From a virus (Duplodnaviria; Heunggongvirae; Uroviricota; Caudoviricetes): 8,805 nucleotides of DNA. Every line of letters starts with the position of its first letter. The stretch's first letter is position 1. The notes under the pieces were generated by a model that saw nothing but the letters and a program-made list of their open reading frames with translations, was not told the origin of the DNA and searched no databases. A program made the translations under genes and the position numbers. Where the stretch lies: IMG/VR virus record IMGVR_UViG_2671180809_000010; one strand, given 5' to 3'. Of the stretch, positions 1 to 8,805 are shown piece after piece.

Positions 1-558
1 CTAGATGGTGCTGCAACTGAGCATGACACGCTGTTACCACGATTCACCGATGATATAAGCCGTCAATCATGGGTTAGTGAAAAGGTCTTCTGTAACCTGC
101 CGTACAGCGATATTCCGTCGTTCCTCTTAAAAGCGTCTGAAGCGGATTTAGTAGCTTTCCTGATACCGCATAGAGCCAACACCAGCTACTGGCTTAGGCA
201 CATTTACAGCAATAACCACTGTCATGAAATCCGTATTCTTCATCGTGCAGTTAAATACCTTCCACCAGCAGGCCATAACGGGCTTACTATTCGTTCACCG
301 TTTCCTAGTGCAGTCGTTGTTTTTAAAAAAGAACCACGTAAGCACGAAATTACACAGACGGTTTGCTGTGGTGACACGCTATTACCGTTAACCATCATTA
401 ACAGAGGAGGCTTGAGAGGAAGACCCACCATTTACCCACCTGAGACGCTCGACAGCTTCATAAAACTATACAGGCAAGGAAAACCCATTAAGTGCATTGC
501 AGATGCTCTCAGAATGCCTCTGAGCACGTCATACAGGATTGCTCAAAGGTTGAGCTAA
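1..558 (+). CDS. DNA N6-adenine methyltransferase, phage Dam family, 5'-truncated by the window edge, with C-terminal helix-turn-helix extension
   Basis: Frame-1 translation is open from position 1 to TAA at 556-558: ...RFTDDISRQSWVSEKVFCNLPYS...HRANTSYWLRH...GLTIRSPFPSAVVVFKK...GRPTIYPPETLDSFIKLYRQGKPIKCIADALRMPLSTSYRIAQRLS. The (D/N)PPY-type motif position reads NLPY (94-105), and a PFPS-type motif follows, as in phage Dam-family methyltransferases (Pfam PF05869-like, by recall). The last ~45 residues look like a resolvase/Hin-type HTH. Confidence 0.7.
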   Translation, partial: LDGAATEHDTLLPRFTDDISRQSWVSEKVFCNLPYSDIPSFLLKASEADLVAFLIPHRANTSYWLRHIYSNNHCHEIRILHRAVKYLPPAGHNGLTIRSPFPSAVVVFKKEPRKHEITQTVCCGDTLLPLTIINRGGLRGRPTIYPPETLDSFIKLYRQGKPIKCIADALRMPLSTSYRIAQRLS

Positions 559-1116
559 AATTCTCATAAATATGGTCATTTAAATGATATAAGCCGTCAA
601 TCATGGGTTAGTGAAAAGGTCTTCTGTAACCCGCCGTACAGCGATATTCCGTCGTTCCTCTTAAAAGCGTCTGAAGCGGATTTAGTAGCTTTCCTGATAC
701 CGCATAGAGCCAACACCAGCTACTGGCTTAGGCACATTTACAGCAATAACCACTGTCATGAAATCCGTATTCTTCATCGTGCAGTTAAATACCTTCCACC
801 AGCAGGGCATAACAGGCTTACTATTAGGTCACCGTTTCCAAGTGCAGTCGTTGTTTTTAAAAAAGAACCACGTAAGCATGAAATTACACAGATGGTTTGC
901 TGTGCTGATACATTGCTACCGTTAACCATCATTAACCGTGGTGGACTAAGAGGAAGACCCACCATTTACCCACCTGAGACGCTCGACAGCTTCATAAAAC
1001 TATACAGGCAAGGAAAACCCATTAAGTACATTGCAGATGCTCTCAGAATGCCTCTGAGCACGTCATACAGGATTGCTCAAAGGTTGAGCTAAAATTCTCA
1101 TAAATATGGTCATTTA
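50..1116. repeat. Tandem direct duplication, two units of about 534 bp (50-583 and 584-1116)
   Basis: Second unit repeats the first with the same phase (534 = 178 codons). About twenty substitutions, clustered at 268-420 versus 802-954; the rest is near-identical. Confidence 0.9.
559..1092 (+). pseudogene. Duplicated 3' fragment of the methyltransferase gene, no start codon for the methyltransferase portion
   Basis: Frame is open from the TAA at 556-558 to TAA at 1090-1092 and encodes ...VFCNPPYS... (NPPY at 628-639) plus the same HTH tail. No ATG/GTG/TTG in frame before ATG 892. The ORF track calls only 892-1092 (66 aa, HTH portion), with no obvious SD. Confidence 0.5.
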
Positions 1117-1180: not shown

Positions 1181-1210
1181 TTCTGTGAAATAATTGTTGC
1201 AATTTATAAT
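1181..1210 (+). promoter_or_regulatory. Candidate sigma70-type promoter upstream of the replication gene
   Basis: Perfect -10 TATAAT at 1205-1210 with a weak -35 TTCTGT at 1181-1186 (18-bp spacer). A second candidate is TTGACA at 1292-1297 with TATTCA at 1314-1319. Both are consensus matches only. Confidence 0.25.
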
Positions 1211-1474
1211 CACATCTGTTATAGTTTTTATATGGGGTGATAAAAGAACTCAGAACATTAAGAGGTTACAACGTTGGGAGGCGTCAGGGTATTGACAGAT
1301 TTTCACGGCCTCTTATTCAATCAAGGCTTTTCCTTTTGCTGTTAATACTCGCGTAATCGCTCAGGCTTCTGAGTTCCTTTATCAGTCCATCTTCTAATTA
1401 ATTCACTCCCTCTGGGGTTGGTCACTATACGTGGTCAGCCCTTTCTTTGTTTTATTTTTAAAAAGGAAAATATA

Positions 1475-2428
1475 ATGGAAAAATTCCACATGTTTGATGA
1501 CCGTATTTATCAGATGACTAATGGCGTTAAAGCTGCCGACCGTATTATTTACACTGTCATGTTGAATGAACAAAAGTTTTATCACGATAAGGGGCAATAT
1601 TATACCCCTTCATATGCTCATCTTGGTCAGTATGCTGGAATCACAAGAACATCCGTGATTGCATGTATGAAACAACTTGAGGCACATGGTTTAATCAAGA
1701 AAACTAACGTTGCAAGCAATCAGTGTGTTATTAAAGTTTATTCACTTGATGAAGTACCGGAGGTTTTAACAGAGCTTACAGCTAAGGAAGCCAGAAAGGC
1801 AAAGCTGGAGTCTAAAGTTACTCAGTCAGTCAAGAAAGATGACCCACTGAGTCAAAATTCTTTACCCACTGAGTCAAAATTTTTTACTCAGTCAGTCAAA
1901 ATCTTTGACACGTATAATAACAGTAATAACAAGAAAGAACTTATTAATAACAATAAAGAAGATGACTTTGAAGAAGAATATTTTAAGAAGGGAGCTTCGC
2001 TCTGTGATTCACATGAATGTGATTCTCTTGGTATTGAAGAGGCTATTAAAGAGACTGTTAAAACATCTGACTTAGATGACCTTGATAGTGAAGCTGCTAA
2101 AGAGGTCGTTAAAAAGGAAGATAAAATCTCTGATGTGATTGCTAGTAGTGACCATAAAAACACACAGTGCCCCGCCACTGATGATGAATTACCGGATGTT
2201 GACCTTGATGATGAAGAAGACCCTGAAAAGGAATTGAAACGTGAACAGCGTAAAGCAGAAATTAAAGAAAGATTCAGAAATGCGAAGCTAAAGAACAAGG
2301 TTAGTGACCTCGATGACTTTGATGATAGTGACGATGATTTTACTTTTACACCAAAAAAGAAAACTCACACCGAGCCAAAGAAAGAAAAAGTTAAAGTCAG
2401 ACGTGTTTATGGTGGAGGAATGTTTTAA
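1475..2428 (+). CDS. Replication initiator / replisome organiser-like protein (winged-helix N-terminus, acidic low-complexity C-terminus)
   Basis: ATG 1475 is preceded by AAGGA (1463-1467) at 7-nt spacing, preferred over the TTG at 1418 of the ORF track. N-terminal ~95 aa (...YAHLGQYAGITRTSVIACMKQLEAHGLIKK...) resemble HTH_36-type replication-protein DNA-binding domains. The C-terminal two-thirds are D/E/K-rich. Iteron-like repeats lie inside the gene. Confidence 0.6.
   Translation: MEKFHMFDDRIYQMTNGVKAADRIIYTVMLNEQKFYHDKGQYYTPSYAHLGQYAGITRTSVIACMKQLEAHGLIKKTNVASNQCVIKVYSLDEVPEVLTELTAKEARKAKLESKVTQSVKKDDPLSQNSLPTESKFFTQSVKIFDTYNNSNNKKELINNNKEDDFEEEYFKKGASLCDSHECDSLGIEEAIKETVKTSDLDDLDSEAAKEVVKKEDKISDVIASSDHKNTQCPATDDELPDVDLDDEEDPEKELKREQRKAEIKERFRNAKLKNKVSDLDDFDDSDDDFTFTPKKKTHTEPKKEKVKVRRVYGGGMF
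1818..1899. repeat. Iteron-like direct repeats (putative replication origin) inside the initiator gene
   Basis: Identical 16-mer TTACTCAGTCAGTCAA at 1818-1833 and 1884-1899. Identical 18-mer ACCCACTGAGTCAAAATT at 1842-1859 and 1864-1881. The 18-mer pair is offset by 22 bp, so it sits in different reading frames and is conserved at the DNA level, not the protein level. The two repeat types share ACTCAGT in opposite orientation. Confidence 0.55.
1900..1985. other. AT-rich tract next to the iterons (candidate DNA-unwinding element)
   Basis: Sequence AATCTTTGACACGTATAATAACAGTAATAACAAGAAAGAACTTATTAATAACAATAAAGAAG... is markedly more A+T-rich than the flanking coding sequence. Confidence 0.4.
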
Positions 2429-2724
2429 TGAAAACTTATAATGGCGAGAGAAAATACCGTGACTATTTACTCAGACGTTACAGCATTTCTCGTGAAGGTT
2501 ACTTGATGAAAGATACTCACGGGGAAGTTTACCGGATTCGACCGAAGAAAGAAGGGAGGGATTATTATTTCGTCGATGATGTGACAGATTTAAAGATTGA
2601 CGCTTTGAAGTTTGCGGTGCTGTATCATTACGATTTATGGGATTCAGTCCACCAGCTACGATTAAAAGACGGTGACCCCGGTAATCTGAGGGCCACCAAT
2701 ATTATCAAGGGAAAGTGCCGGTAA
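2428..2724 (+). CDS. Hypothetical protein, 98 aa; weak resemblance to HNH_3/AP2-type small nuclease-like proteins
   Basis: ATG 2428 overlaps the upstream stop (TAATG). GGAGG at 2414-2418. The C-terminal ...VHQLRLKDGDPGNLRATNI... loosely recalls the H-x-DG-x-N-x-NL motif region of HNH_3 proteins; this is a weak, unverified match. Confidence 0.5.
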   Translation: MKTYNGERKYRDYLLRRYSISREGYLMKDTHGEVYRIRPKKEGRDYYFVDDVTDLKIDALKFAVLYHYDLWDSVHQLRLKDGDPGNLRATNIIKGKCR

Positions 2725-5643: not shown

Positions 5644-5741
5644 CAAGATTGGTTGGGTGAAAATCTACGGGAGAGATTATCGAGTGATATCGGTAGTCTT
5701 TCCCTTTTTCGTATATGAACACTTAAAGAGGTGAAACATGA

Positions 5742-7922
5742 ATGAGCAAATTCACAGTTGATAGTTTTATCGTTGAACTTAGTTTCAGTGAAAACGTTAT
5801 TAAGGGCTTGCAAAGAGTTGAAAAGGCAGCTTTGCAGTCAGCACAAAGAATTGAACGCAATTTGAATAGAGCGTTTAAGGTCGATACCAAGCAACTTGAC
5901 AGCAATCTGACAAGTTCTTTAGGGCAGCTTGAAAGGAAGTTTAATAAGACCTTTGACAAGATTGAGCAGAGAGCAAGAAGCACAAAAGCATTTCAGTTTG
6001 CCACCAGATTTAATGACACTGTTAATCCTCCAAAACAATCAAGGCAACCACGAATTAGCGGAAACAGAGCAATCACAGCAGCGCATAGCGTGAATATGTC
6101 TAAGCTTGGTGATATTAATCCGCTGATGGCTAAAATGTTTAAAGCACAGTATTACAGCTTAAGCGGTAAGGCTGGTAATATTGGAAGTGAAAAGTTTAAC
6201 GCTGAACTTGCAAAATTAAATCAATCTCTTCGTGAAACGTTGAATAAACTCAGGTCACAGACAAAGACCGCCAGCATTAACAATACAAGCGACGCATTTA
6301 ATAATCTTGCAAGCAATGCGATTAAATTATCTGGTGCATTTTACTCTGTGATGGGTGCTCTTAACGCTTACAAGGCCATTATGAATGCAGGTCTTAAACG
6401 AGATTCCGCACAGAGAGCCGCTAAGTTTGTACTTGGTGATAAAGCATCTGAAGCTGAGGTATTTATTCGAAATTTAGCAGACAAGACAGGTCTTAATATC
6501 TCTGAAGGGCTATCAAGCTACGCTAAGTTTGCAGCAGGTGCTCAGGGTTCTATGTCACAGGAACAGACACAGGAGCTATTTGGTAATGCAACGGCTATGA
6601 GTCGCTTAATGGGGCTTTCTAACGATGAGCTAAACGGCATTTTGAGAGCATTTGAGCAGATGGCGAGCAAGGGCAAGATTCAGGCTGAGGAATTACGTGG
6701 GCAGTTAGGTGACCGTATGGCTGGTGCATTTAAGCTATTCGCTGAAGCATTGGGTATGACTGCTACAGAGCTTGATGCAGCCATGAAAAACGGGAAGGTA
6801 CTTTCCGCTGATACTCTCCCTAAAGTCGCTAAACAGATGGGCTTGATGATTGATAAAGCGGGTGGCTGGGCTGAAGTCACTAAGAGCACTCAGACAGCTT
6901 TAGGTAAGTTAGCAAACAATTGGGATGATACGATGGTGAAAATCTTCTCAGGTTCACAGGATGAGCTAAACGGCTTCTTATCCAGCCTGAGTAACCTGCT
7001 TAGTGAAATGGGGATGAGTTCTTCTATCGCTGGTGATGCTATCGGTGGACTTATCGACATGCTTAAAGCTGGTGTAGATGATATTCGCGTATTCAATAAC
7101 ACCATTGAAGGCTGGATTTTACAGACTAAGAAGTTCTATTACAGCCTTGATGACACTAAACGAAAACTACTTGATGAAGTCGGTGATGGTTTTATCAACT
7201 TCGTCAAAGGTCTTGCTATAGCGTTATCTGCAAAGACGCTATTCAGTGCTACTACAGGGGTTATGAACCTGACAAGAGCAATCACAACGTTAGGTACAAG
7301 AGCTAATCAGGTGGCTGGTCAGGTAGCTACTGGTAAAGGTGGTGGAAAACTGAAAGGTGTAGCTGGTGGTGTAGGTAGTGCTCTTGCAATTGGTTATGCT
7401 GATGACGGTTATGAAACAGCGTTAGCATTAGCTTCAATGATTCCACAAATCAGAGGCGTCACTCTTGGTTTATATGCATTGAAGAAAGCACTGGATTTTA
7501 TGAATCAGGAAGTAGTCAAAAACGCTAATATGCATCCGTCTGGGGTAGGTGTGGGTAGTGACTTTAATCCCGTGTATTCTGGTGACCCTAATAAACCGAA
7601 TATGATTAACGAAGGATGGAGTAGAATTTTTAGTTCAATGGGTGAATTGTTTAACAATGCCACAATGAATATTGCAAGATTCAATCATCCAGAGTTAAAC
7701 AACATTAAGCAAGATTCAGCATTAACGAGTGCAGATATTCAGGGTCTGAGGGATGAAATTAGTGCTTTGAGTAAGCGTATTCAGGAGCCAGTGAAAGTTT
7801 CACTTGGTGGTCAAGTTGTCGTTCGACCAGATGAACCATCTTTCTTTACTTTCAATCAATCAGCTAATGACCAGTTCACGCAGGATATGCTCTTAAGTTC
7901 AAGCTATCCAGAGGAAGAATGA
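5742..7922 (+). CDS. Phage tail tape measure protein, 726 aa
   Basis: AGAGGTGA at 5727-5734 before ATG 5742. The segment ...EQMASKGKIQAEELRGQLGDRMAGAFKLFAEALGMTATELDAAMKNGKVLSADTLPKVAKQM... (about 6610-6840) matches the conserved tape-measure domain (TIGR02675-type, by recall). There is a coiled-coil-like N-terminus and a Gly-rich hydrophobic stretch GKGGGKLKGVAGGVGSALAIGY... near the C-terminus. Confidence 0.75.
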   Translation: MSKFTVDSFIVELSFSENVIKGLQRVEKAALQSAQRIERNLNRAFKVDTKQLDSNLTSSLGQLERKFNKTFDKIEQRARSTKAFQFATRFNDTVNPPKQSRQPRISGNRAITAAHSVNMSKLGDINPLMAKMFKAQYYSLSGKAGNIGSEKFNAELAKLNQSLRETLNKLRSQTKTASINNTSDAFNNLASNAIKLSGAFYSVMGALNAYKAIMNAGLKRDSAQRAAKFVLGDKASEAEVFIRNLADKTGLNISEGLSSYAKFAAGAQGSMSQEQTQELFGNATAMSRLMGLSNDELNGILRAFEQMASKGKIQAEELRGQLGDRMAGAFKLFAEALGMTATELDAAMKNGKVLSADTLPKVAKQMGLMIDKAGGWAEVTKSTQTALGKLANNWDDTMVKIFSGSQDELNGFLSSLSNLLSEMGMSSSIAGDAIGGLIDMLKAGVDDIRVFNNTIEGWILQTKKFYYSLDDTKRKLLDEVGDGFINFVKGLAIALSAKTLFSATTGVMNLTRAITTLGTRANQVAGQVATGKGGGKLKGVAGGVGSALAIGYADDGYETALALASMIPQIRGVTLGLYALKKALDFMNQEVVKNANMHPSGVGVGSDFNPVYSGDPNKPNMINEGWSRIFSSMGELFNNATMNIARFNHPELNNIKQDSALTSADIQGLRDEISALSKRIQEPVKVSLGGQVVVRPDEPSFFTFNQSANDQFTQDMLLSSSYPEEE

Positions 7923-7934
7923 TTTAACGGTGTT

Positions 7935-7987
7935 CTACGTGAATAAAGCAAAGTTAATACCCACACCAAAAATTATTTTTCACGTAG
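7935..7987. repeat. 9-bp inverted repeat CTACGTGAA ... TTCACGTAG with 35-bp A+T-rich spacer
   Basis: Read directly, downstream of the tape measure stop. Confidence 0.5.
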
Positions 7988-8017
7988 CTCACGCTTAACA
8001 GAGAAAATACATATATA

Positions 8018-8805
<788 letters not shown>

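What the first reader, a model, noticed from the sequence alone, without database searches (positions are those of the whole stretch)
1818..1985. Putative replication origin embedded in the initiator gene (iterons plus AT-rich tract)
Four repeats in about 80 bp (16-mer pair 1818-1833 and 1884-1899; 18-mer pair 1842-1859 and 1864-1881) are followed directly by a strongly AT-rich tract. The 18-mer pair lies in different codon phases, so it is selected at the DNA level. In lambdoid phages the origin lies within the O gene as iterons plus an AT-rich region bound by the O N-terminal domain; this locus has the same layout. The iteron sequence appears distinct from lambda's.
Basis: partly seen in the sequence, partly recalled or inferred. 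Interest (0 to 1): 0.55.

Follow-up and report, generated by a model that had tools for sequence, protein, structure and literature searches.

The report
Replication origin inside its initiator gene
Four evenly spaced DNA repeats and an AT-rich stretch in the middle of a winged-helix gene look like a replication origin lying inside its own initiator gene; the design is classical, but here it sits in an undescribed E. coli/Shigella chromosomal island that carries tail genes of Felix O1-like phages.

Summary

- **Repeats:** the two "pairs" are one family of four dyad-symmetric repeats, exactly 22 bp apart (1818, 1840, 1862, 1884). About 60 bp of 20-23% GC follows.
- **Gene:** they lie in a 317-aa gene (1475-2428). 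Its N-terminal winged helix matches phage replication-initiator profiles and folds like RepA_N initiators.
- **Position:** gene nt 344-425, against 349-433 for the lambda iterons in gene O.
- **Covariation:** E. coli islands carry three alleles of the N-terminal domain. Each has its own four repeats 22-23 bp apart and an AT tract at the same place, while the C-terminal half is shared.
- **More distant homologues:** two (about 36-42% identity) have the same layout.
- **DNA-level constraint:** repeat cores stay fixed while spacers drift, and a 15-mer in the AT tract is conserved in two reading frames.
- **Context:** not a lambdoid phage. It is an ~11.5 kb island with a serine integrase and Felixounavirus-like tape-measure and baseplate genes.

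Verdict: a new member of a known kind of origin (lambda O, pSK41 RepA_N). The island may be a PLE-like phage satellite.

The parts
1197..1225 (+). Sigma-70-like promoter (TTGCAA, 17 nt spacer, TATAGT, with TG extension) upstream of the initiator gene
   Evidence: Consensus scan. The same site is found in type B and type C islands and lies in an invariant block of the three-type alignment. This is a consensus match only.
1414..1452 (+). Terminator-like hairpin (12 pairs) plus T-run, directly before the ribosome-binding site of the initiator gene; type A-specific leader
   Evidence: Types B and C have a different leader in which no terminator is called. A role in attenuation is inferred only.
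1475..2428 (+). Initiator gene, 317 aa
   Evidence: ORF. RefSeq homologues start at the same ATG. PHROG replication-initiation and O-like families match at E 1.9e-10 to 1e-5 over aa 9-168.
1475..1816 (+). N-terminal winged-helix DNA-binding domain (about aa 1-114)
   Evidence: AlphaFold2 model with mean pLDDT 80.7: helices 20-38, 47-54 and 58-70, wing strands 74-88, helix 103-119. Best PDB matches are 4pql, 4pt7, 4pta and 5kbj (staphylococcal RepA_N N-terminal domains, one with iteron DNA) and 4ro3 (PLE RepA N-terminal domain), E 4e-5 to 1.4e-3, TM 0.56-0.64. The viral structure library returns phage replication initiators and an O-like protein.
1818..1839 (.). Iteron 1 (TTACTCAGTCAGTCAA plus spacer)
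   Evidence: It is the most variable unit in the diverged type A allele L018 (11 of 14 core positions kept).
1840..1861 (.). Iteron 2 (TGACCCACTGAGTCAA plus spacer); the 15-bp core is palindromic at 12 of 15 positions
   Evidence: The core keeps 13 of 14 positions in L018 while its spacer keeps 4 of 8.
1862..1883 (.). Iteron 3 (TTACCCACTGAGTCAA plus spacer)
   Evidence: The core keeps 14 of 14 positions in L018; the spacer keeps 3 of 8.
1884..1905 (.). Iteron 4 (TTACTCAGTCAGTCAA plus spacer)
   Evidence: The core keeps 14 of 14 positions in L018; the spacer keeps 2 of 6.
1906..1965 (.). AT-rich, A-strand-biased tract; the inferred DNA-unwinding element. It opens with a TGAC half-site and a conserved 16-mer (1906-1921) and holds TAATAACA repeats at 1915, 1924 and 1945
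   Evidence: GC 0.233 over 1906-1965 and 0.196 over 1910-1960, tied for the lowest in the window. The 16-mer TGACACGTATAATAAC keeps 16 of 16 positions in L018. Equivalent tracts of 12-20% GC follow the repeats in types B and C; in L021 the minimum is 22.5% and in L023 30%. The homology break with type B islands lies at 1965.
1928..1942 (.). Conserved 15-mer AACAAGAAAGAACTT inside the AT tract
   Evidence: It is the top-ranked or second-ranked nucleotide match between this gene and the distant homologues L021 and L023. It is read in codon phase 0, 0 and 1 respectively, so it is conserved as DNA and not as peptide. It occurs once per locus.
1966..2428 (+). C-terminal acidic half of the initiator, shared by all three allele types; inferred to recruit the replisome
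   Evidence: Most E. coli homologues match only gene nt ~485-950. The protein alignment shows the invariant SDHKNTQCPATDDE and DDFDDSDDD blocks. It has no family hit.
2428..2724 (+). 98-aa ORF whose start overlaps the initiator stop codon (TAATG); a 96-98-aa ORF is annotated directly downstream in every intact island fetched. Function unknown
   Evidence: No hit in Pfam, PHROGs, NCBIfam or PADLOC.

Best explanation
Window 1818-1965 is most likely the vegetative replication origin of an ~11.5 kb E. coli/Shigella chromosomal island. It lies inside the gene of its own initiator.

Proposed mechanism:
1. Dimers of the N-terminal winged-helix domain (about aa 1-114) bind the four near-palindromic iterons. 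The iterons are 22 bp apart, about two helical turns, so all sit on one face of the DNA.
2. The bound proteins assemble into a nucleoprotein complex.
3. That complex strains and opens the adjoining AT-rich tract (1906-1965), which contains a conserved 15-mer.
4. The shared acidic C-terminal half recruits a helicase or primase that the island does not encode. The source would be the host or a helper phage.

The DNA that forms the origin also encodes the disordered linker between the two protein domains. The binding domain and its sites therefore travel as one exchangeable cassette of ~500-550 bp.

Shown here: the anatomy, the initiator-like fold, covariation of binding domain and repeats, and DNA-level conservation.

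Inferred: binding, unwinding, which replisome is recruited, and whether replication needs a helper phage.
For: 1. The repeats are real, exactly phased and far beyond chance, and occur only here in a whole related island.

2. The host protein is initiator-like. PHROG replication-initiation and O-like families match at E 1.9e-10 to 1e-5. The predicted N-terminal domain (pLDDT 80.7) is closest to RepA_N initiator domains, including the Rep-iteron DNA complex 5kbj and the PLE RepA domain 4ro3. It also matches phage replication initiators in the viral structure library.

3. Three alleles in E. coli (types A, B, C) have N-terminal domains 37-44% identical to one another. Each has its own set of four units at 22-23 bp spacing at gene nt ~345-435, and each array is followed by a 12-20% GC tract. 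In types B and C the leftmost unit is degenerate.

4. The C-terminal half and the flanks are shared. Between types B and C, homology breaks exactly at the start codon and resumes at gene nt ~545-560.

5. Two more distant homologues, also in island contexts, have 3-4 repeats of 22-24 nt followed by a tract of lower GC (minimum 22.5% in L021, 30% in L023) at the equivalent place.

6. Within type A, against an allele whose N-terminal coding DNA is 79.6% identical:
- iteron cores 2-4 keep 41 of 42 positions;
- the post-iteron 16-mer keeps 16 of 16;
- spacers keep only 15 of 30.

7. The units are read in codon phases 1, 2, 0, 1. The AT-tract 15-mer is conserved in two different frames. Selection therefore acts on the DNA.

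8. The position matches lambda (iterons at O gene nt 349-433). The layout matches pSK41 Rep, a 319-aa protein: the N-terminal 120 aa bind four Rep boxes located centrally in rep, the central domain is encoded by the ori, and the C-terminal domain is host-specific (PMC5703833).

9. The covariation of binding domain and origin with a conserved C-terminal domain is what was shown experimentally for PLE replicons (PMC8263062).
Against: - No experiment supports binding or origin activity.
- No helicase, primase or loader gene is recognisable in the island.
- The protein is not a sequence member of Phage_rep_O or RepA_N, even at E <= 10, and has no BLASTP similarity to lambda O.
- The A-tracts between iterons are not conserved in the diverged type A allele, so intrinsic bending is not a conserved feature.
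- Many copies are decaying: frameshifts and unit losses in L013, L014, L017 and L019. The window's island is itself damaged elsewhere, so present-day function of this particular copy is uncertain.
- The conservation segments were chosen after seeing the alignment.
Confidence: 0.8

Rival explanations
1. The repeats are binding sites for the protein's own N-terminal domain but serve regulation rather than initiation. Candidates are autorepression by roadblock, copy control or incompatibility by handcuffing, or a partition (centromere-like) site.
For: Covariation of binding domain and repeats shows only cognate binding, not origin firing. Iterons in plasmids commonly have regulatory roles alongside initiation (general knowledge).
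Against: The array is always followed by an AT-rich tract containing a DNA-level conserved 15-mer, which a pure operator or centromere does not need. The site lies 340 nt inside the coding sequence, not at the promoter. No second iteron cluster exists in the island. No partition ATPase is present. The fold and profile matches are to initiators.
Confidence: 0.08
2. The array is a packaging or recognition site (pac-like), or a decoy site used in conflict with a helper phage, bound by the winged-helix protein acting as a small-terminase-like or interference factor.
For: The island looks like a phage satellite: it has Felixounavirus-like tail genes and a serine integrase. A satellite needs a packaging signal, and none has been identified.
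Against: The protein has no terminase-like match. Its best profile and structure matches are replication initiators. The layout of iterons, AT tract and a conserved C-terminal domain is that of lambda O and pSK41 Rep. The iteron motifs are not found in phage records: tblastn and pattern scans return nothing relevant.
Confidence: 0.04
3. The repeats are a neutral tandem duplication in a tolerant, low-complexity linker, or a peptide repeat, with no function as DNA.
For: The linker tolerates indels: L004 has extra TAATAACAG units, and L017 and L019 have lost whole units.
Against: The period is 22-23 nt, so the units are read in three frames. Five lineages keep 3-4 units with different sequences at the same place. 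Cores are conserved while spacers diverge. Losing a unit breaks the frame and gives truncated pseudogenes.
Confidence: 0.02

Closest known systems
Bacteriophage lambda ori within gene O (lambdoid replication module)
   Same: Both have four dyad-symmetric iterons about 20-24 bp apart in the middle of the initiator gene: lambda O nt 349-433, here nt 344-425. In both, an A-strand-biased AT-rich tract follows directly. The type-specific N-terminal domain and its iterons contrast with a more conserved C-terminal part; for lambdoid phages this last point is from established knowledge.
   Different: There is no sequence membership: Phage_rep_O (PF04492) is not hit, while lambda O itself scores 5.7e-36, and BLASTP finds nothing. 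No P-like loader gene is recognisable downstream. The context is an ~11.5 kb island with a serine integrase, not a lambdoid prophage.
RepA_N theta replicons of Gram-positive plasmids (pSK41 Rep; pPR9 chimera)
   Same: The N-terminal domain fold is the closest solved match: 4pql, 4pt7, 4pta and 5kbj. Protein sizes are nearly equal (317 vs 319 aa). In pSK41 the N-terminal ~120 aa bind four boxes centrally within the gene, the linker is encoded by the ori, and the C-terminal domain is conserved and host-specific. pPR9 exchanged a ~500 bp block of N-terminal domain plus ori for a PF13730 HTH (PMC5703833). Here type C scores above the PF13730 threshold, and the same cassette exchange is seen.
   Different: Pfam RepA_N (PF06970) is not hit. 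The host is Gram-negative and the element is an integrated island; no plasmid match exists. The C-terminal domain is unrelated and its partner is unknown.
[quoted passage not shown]
   Same: Both are chromosomal islands with a large serine recombinase. Both have a RepA_N-like initiator whose DNA-binding domain covaries with semi-palindromic iterons while the C-terminal domain is conserved (PMC7145576, PMC8263062). The PLE RepA N-terminal domain (4ro3) is among the top structural matches. Both are associated with a virulent myovirus; here the link is tail genes up to about 97% identical to Felixounavirus over 180 aa.
   Different: The PLE ori is in a non-coding region, whereas here it is inside the initiator gene. 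There is no significant sequence similarity (4ro3 E = 0.19). Helper dependence, excision and transduction of this island are unknown.

Membership tests
Lambda-type ori-in-O module | Four dyad-symmetric iterons, about two helical turns apart, in the central part of the initiator gene | tested here: met
   Units at 1818, 1840, 1862 and 1884 (gene nt 344-425). Cores are palindromic at 10-12 of 15 positions. The lambda iterons lie at O nt 349-433.
Lambda-type ori-in-O module | AT-rich tract immediately downstream of the iterons | tested here: met
   GC 0.196 over 1910-1960, tied for the lowest in the window.
Lambda-type ori-in-O module | Initiator belongs to Phage_rep_O (PF04492) or is homologous to lambda O | tested here: not met
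   None of the three alleles hits PF04492 at E <= 10, while lambda O scores 5.7e-36. BLASTP against lambda O finds nothing. There are only remote PHROG 'O-like' hits, E 4e-7 to 1e-5.
Lambda-type ori-in-O module | P-type helicase-loader gene directly downstream; lambdoid prophage context | tested here: not met
   The downstream 98-aa ORF has no family hit. The locus is an ~11.5 kb island carrying a serine recombinase, a tape-measure gene and a baseplate gene.
Lambda-type ori-in-O module | Initiator N-terminal domain binds the iterons and the fragment fires as an origin | not testable with these tools
   Needs EMSA or footprinting and a replication assay.
RepA_N replicons (pSK41 type) | RepA_N N-terminal domain | tested here: inconclusive
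   By fold, the top PDB matches are RepA_N domains: E 4e-5 to 1.4e-3, TM 0.56-0.64. Pfam PF06970 is not hit. The PDB sequence profile gives 4ro3 at E = 0.19.
RepA_N replicons (pSK41 type) | Rep boxes centrally within rep; the central linker is encoded by the ori | tested here: met
   The comparison with pSK41 is from PMC5703833.
RepA_N replicons (pSK41 type) | C-terminal domain conserved within the host group while N-terminal domain plus ori vary or are exchanged | tested here: met
RepA_N replicons (pSK41 type) | Autonomous plasmid replicon | tested here: not met
   All 157 places in E. coli genomes are chromosomal. tblastn against plasmids finds nothing.
PLE-like phage satellite | Island with a large serine recombinase and an initiator whose DNA-binding domain covaries with the ori | tested here: met
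   A 547-aa recombinase sits at the island end in L026 and is IS21-disrupted in L001; this lies outside the window. Covariation is shown.
PLE-like phage satellite | Excision, replication and packaging triggered by a specific helper phage | not testable with these tools
   The evidence is circumstantial only. The baseplate-like protein is 75% identical to Felixounavirus garuso gp119, about 97% over the first 180 aa. The island is found at several chromosomal sites.
PLE-like phage satellite | Sequence homology to PLE genes | tested here: not met
   4ro3 scores E = 0.19. The exhaustive search found only 18 relatives, and all those examined are of the Escherichia island type.

The most novel reading that the evidence does not exclude
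The island is an undescribed family of PLE-like phage satellites of E. coli and Shigella that parasitise virulent Felix O1-like myoviruses. Its in-gene origin is a portable specificity cassette (binding domain, iterons and unwinding element in ~500-550 bp). This cassette has been swapped repeatedly (types A, B, C and more distant ones), possibly under pressure from helper counter-defences that target origins, as ICP1 Odn does to PLE. Replication would then be helper-dependent, through the conserved acidic C-terminal domain.
Probability: 0.35. Interest if true: 0.75.

Novelty: new member of a known kind. Interest (0 to 1): 0.48.

Why it matters
The origin itself is a textbook design, as in lambda O and pSK41 Rep, so it adds a new member rather than a new principle.

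Its value lies in two things.
- **Natural experiment:** three to five interchangeable cassettes, each a DNA-binding domain with its own iterons, sit on a common backbone. This is a clean case of initiator-origin co-evolution and gives direct, testable predictions of specificity.
- **Handle on an uncharacterised element:** related sequence occurs in about 10% of complete E. coli genomes (534 of 5426), and the initiator gene in 151. The island combines a serine integrase, a RepA_N-like initiator, a Dam-type methylase and near-identical copies of Felixounavirus tail genes.

If the island is a satellite of Felix O1-like phages, which are widely used in biocontrol and typing, its replicon is the first part one would need in order to detect induction and to build reporters.

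Tried and rejected
- **Lambdoid prophage context: rejected.** Megablast against phages matches only 5721-8538, to Felixounavirus tail genes.
- **Membership in the lambda O family: rejected**.
- **Relatives elsewhere:** tblastn of all three initiator alleles against phages and plasmids gave nothing except a weak Parageobacillus phage hit. So no Odn-like mimic of the binding domain was found in Felixounavirus.
- **Collection scans:** the genome-contig scan with the single protein found nothing. With the alignment it found one locus, a type C pseudogene. The IMG/VR protein scan found nothing. Iteron pattern scans of IMG/VR gave 0, 0 and 1 contig; that contig was not examined.
- **Rfam:** no hit in the window.
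- **Host-factor sites:** in 1200-2200 there are only 1-mismatch DnaA-box-like sites and no IHF consensus. This is no evidence for DnaA or IHF dependence.
- **Intrinsic bending by phased A-tracts:** considered, but the tracts are not conserved in L018.
- **Defence and naming libraries:** PADLOC and NCBIfam gave nothing for the other island proteins, apart from the expected tape-measure domain hit in NCBIfam.
- **Literature:** four full-text searches for a description of the island or a Felixounavirus satellite found none, and a fifth on the yciI-tonB site found none. This covers only the held library.

Full report
**1. The observation**

The region 1818-1905 holds four units at exactly 22-bp spacing:
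- TTACTCAGTCAGTCAA at 1818
- TGACCCACTGAGTCAA at 1840
- TTACCCACTGAGTCAA at 1862
- TTACTCAGTCAGTCAA at 1884

Tandem Repeats Finder reports period 22.

The array is far beyond chance:
- Lag-22 self-identity over 66 nt is 0.773 and peaks at 1818. In 200 dinucleotide-preserving shuffles the mean is 0.522, sd 0.024 and maximum 0.622.
- The degenerate motif gives 9 hits against 0.81 expected, eight of them in the array. The minus-strand hits reflect the dyad symmetry of each unit.
- The inner cores are palindromic at 12 of 15 positions.
- The units fall in codon phases 1, 2, 0, 1.

Downstream, 1906-1965 has 23% GC and 1910-1960 has 19.6%. This ties for the lowest-GC 50-mer in the 8.8 kb window.

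**2. The gene**

The array lies in ORF 1475-2428, which encodes 317 aa.

- Pfam gives only sub-threshold winged-helix hits: HTH_Crp_2 and DnaD_N.
- PHROGs matches replication-initiation families at 1.9e-10 and 2.7e-10, and 'O-like' families at 4e-7 to 1e-5, over residues 9-168.
- An AlphaFold2 model of residues 1-125 (pLDDT 80.7) is a winged helix followed by a long helix.
- Its best solved matches are the N-terminal domains of staphylococcal RepA_N initiators (4pql, 4pt7, 4pta, and the Rep-iteron DNA complex 5kbj) and 4ro3, at E 4e-5 to 1.4e-3.
- 4ro3 is the N-terminal domain of the RepA initiator of the Vibrio cholerae satellite PLE (PMC7145576).
- The viral structure library returns phage replication initiators and an O-like protein.

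The protein is not a sequence member of Phage_rep_O or RepA_N and shows nothing by BLASTP against lambda O.

**3. Context**

The window is not a lambdoid phage.

- Against phage records, only 5721-8538 matches, and it matches Felixounavirus tail genes.
- Against E. coli genomes, the window matches chromosomal islands. 534 of 5426 genomes have some part, and 151 have the initiator gene.
- An intact copy (L026) is about 11.5 kb. In order it carries a small recombinase, a DNA N6-adenine methyltransferase, the initiator, several small unknown genes, a tape-measure gene, a baseplate-like gene and a 547-aa serine recombinase.
- Copies sit at different chromosomal sites: yciI-tonB, ymdF-wrbA, near msyB in E. 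albertii, and a remnant next to dinB.
- No helicase, primase or loader is recognisable.

**4. The comparative test**

Most E. coli homologues match only gene nt ~485-950. I fetched 15 loci and found three alleles of the N-terminal domain, 37-44% identical to one another, joined to a shared C-terminal half.

Each allele has its own array at gene nt ~345-435 followed by a 12-20% GC tract:

| Type | Repeat | Period |
|---|---|---|
| A | as in the window | 22 |
| B | ACCCAACCAGAATTTGGTTACCT, containing AACCA-N5-TGGTT | 23 |
| C | AGTGACAAAATGTCA, containing TGACA-AAA-TGTCA | 22-23 |

In types B and C the leftmost unit is degenerate.

The homology breaks define the exchanged cassette:
- Type A against B: from ~1288/1320 to 1965.
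- Type A against C: to 2013-2077.
- Type B against C: exactly from the start codon to gene nt ~545-560.

The exchanged cassette is therefore the binding domain, the iterons and the AT tract.

An exhaustive search of 1.84 billion representative proteins found only 18 relatives. Two distant ones (36-42% identity) also sit in islands. One is next to a serine recombinase at a flavodoxin-family gene (wrbA-like), and the other is upstream of a tape-measure gene. Both have 3-4 repeats of 22-24 nt centrally in the gene, followed by a drop in GC to 22.5% and 30% respectively.

**5. DNA-level constraint**

Against a type A allele whose N-terminal coding DNA is 79.6% identical, with 42% of third positions changed:
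- iteron cores 2-4 keep 41 of 42 positions;
- the 16-mer after iteron 4 keeps 16 of 16;
- spacers keep 15 of 30.

I chose these segments after seeing the alignment.

The 15-mer AACAAGAAAGAACTT (1928-1942) in the AT tract is the top-ranked or second-ranked nucleotide match between the window gene and the two distant homologues. It is read in a different frame in one of them.

Loss of one unit is seen in L017 and L019, and frameshifts in L013 and L014. These give truncated proteins, which explains the many 139-196-aa database entries.

**6. Comparison with known systems**

- **Lambda:** four iterons at O nt 349-433, then an A-rich tract. This is the same position and order as here.
- **pSK41 Rep (319 aa):** the N-terminal 120 aa bind four Rep boxes centrally within rep. 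The central domain is encoded by the ori and is dispensable. The C-terminal domain is host-specific and binds DnaG. The plasmid pPR9 exchanged ~500 bp of N-terminal domain plus ori for a PF13730 HTH (PMC5703833). Type C scores above the PF13730 threshold here.
- **PLE:** the RepA_N domain covaries with the ori, the C-terminal domain is conserved, and modules were exchanged at least twice (PMC8263062). In PLE the ori is non-coding.

This locus works like all three. It fails sequence membership in the first two and has no homology to PLE.

**7. Mechanism and verdict**

The best-supported reading (confidence about 0.8) has four steps:
1. Winged-helix dimers bind the four phased iterons.
2. They form a higher-order complex.
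3. The complex opens the adjacent AT tract.
4. The conserved acidic C-terminal half recruits a replisome from the host or a helper phage.

Only the anatomy, fold, covariation and conservation are shown. Binding, opening and recruitment are inferred.

The rivals are a regulatory-only binding site, a packaging site, and neutral repeats. All are disfavoured by the constant AT tract with its frame-independent conserved 15-mer, by the initiator-like fold, and by the frame-breaking period.

The origin is a new member of a known kind. The more novel possibility is that the island is a PLE-like satellite of Felix O1-like phages. I found no description of it in the searchable literature.

Noticed in passing
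window 5742-7922 and 8058-8770; L001 17358-20483; L026 10217-13339: The island carries a tape-measure gene and the gene that follows it in Felixounavirus genomes, in the same order. The tape-measure protein is 33% identical to that of phage garuso. The baseplate-like protein is 75% identical overall and about 97% over its first 180 aa. Together with the serine integrase and the initiator, this suggests a satellite of, or defence island against, virulent Felix O1-like phages. No paper describing it was found.
   Followed up: partly
whole window (single GATC at 8793): GATC occurs once in 8805 bases, against 27 +/- 5 expected from shuffles. The one site lies at the extreme right end, in the IS-like terminal stretch. 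Yet the island encodes a DNA N6-adenine methyltransferase just upstream of the initiator. This strong GATC avoidance is unexplained.
   Followed up: partly
window 1-582 and 584-1130: A tandem duplication with a period of about 534 nt. It covers the 3' part of the methyltransferase gene and its HTH_7-like C-terminus; related islands have a single copy.
   Followed up: partly
window 1197-1225 and 1414-1452: A promoter-like site is conserved in all three allele types. In type A, a strong terminator-like hairpin lies directly before the initiator's ribosome-binding site, implying a leader of roughly 250 nt (estimated from the promoter-like site to the start codon) and possible attenuation control. 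pSK41 rep is controlled by antisense-RNA-driven attenuation (PMC5703833).
   Followed up: partly
L017 9320-9385; L019 4387-4944; L013, L014: The iteron array is an indel hotspot. Whole 22-23-nt units are lost, which shifts the frame and truncates the initiator. Many database homologues end at 139-196 aa. In-frame expansion of the TAATAACAG unit in the AT tract occurs in L004.
   Followed up: partly
window 8058-8231 and 8765-8805: The baseplate-like gene of this copy is broken. Only a 57-aa ORF remains intact, apparently after an internal deletion near 8228. The last ~40 bases match sequence found on Shigella sonnei and E. coli plasmids, probably the end of an insertion sequence. This copy of the island is therefore partly decayed.
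   Followed up: partly
window 2428-2724: A 98-aa ORF overlaps the initiator stop codon (TAATG), and a 96-98-aa ORF is annotated directly downstream in every intact island fetched. It has no hit in any profile library. It could be the initiator's partner.
   Followed up: no
window 2300-2345 (aa ~276-290 of the initiator): The conserved acidic block DLDDFDDSDDDF resembles, from memory, the acidic C-terminal tip of E. coli SSB (DFDDDIPF), which docks many replication proteins. Distant homologues also end in acidic-aromatic tails. This is a lead only and was not tested.
   Followed up: no
L021 8933-9184 (and L022 1165-1416): In one distant island the gene next to the initiator homologue encodes a small T5orf172 (GIY-YIG-like) domain protein. 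This is the nuclease domain type that ICP1 fuses to a RepA-like domain in its origin-directed nuclease Odn (PMC8263062).
   Followed up: no
window 2205-2226: A 22-nt stretch, TTGATGATGAAGAAGACCCTGA, in the C-terminal half is identical to one in the otherwise highly diverged homologue L023. This suggests mosaic exchange within the C-terminal domain.
   Followed up: no
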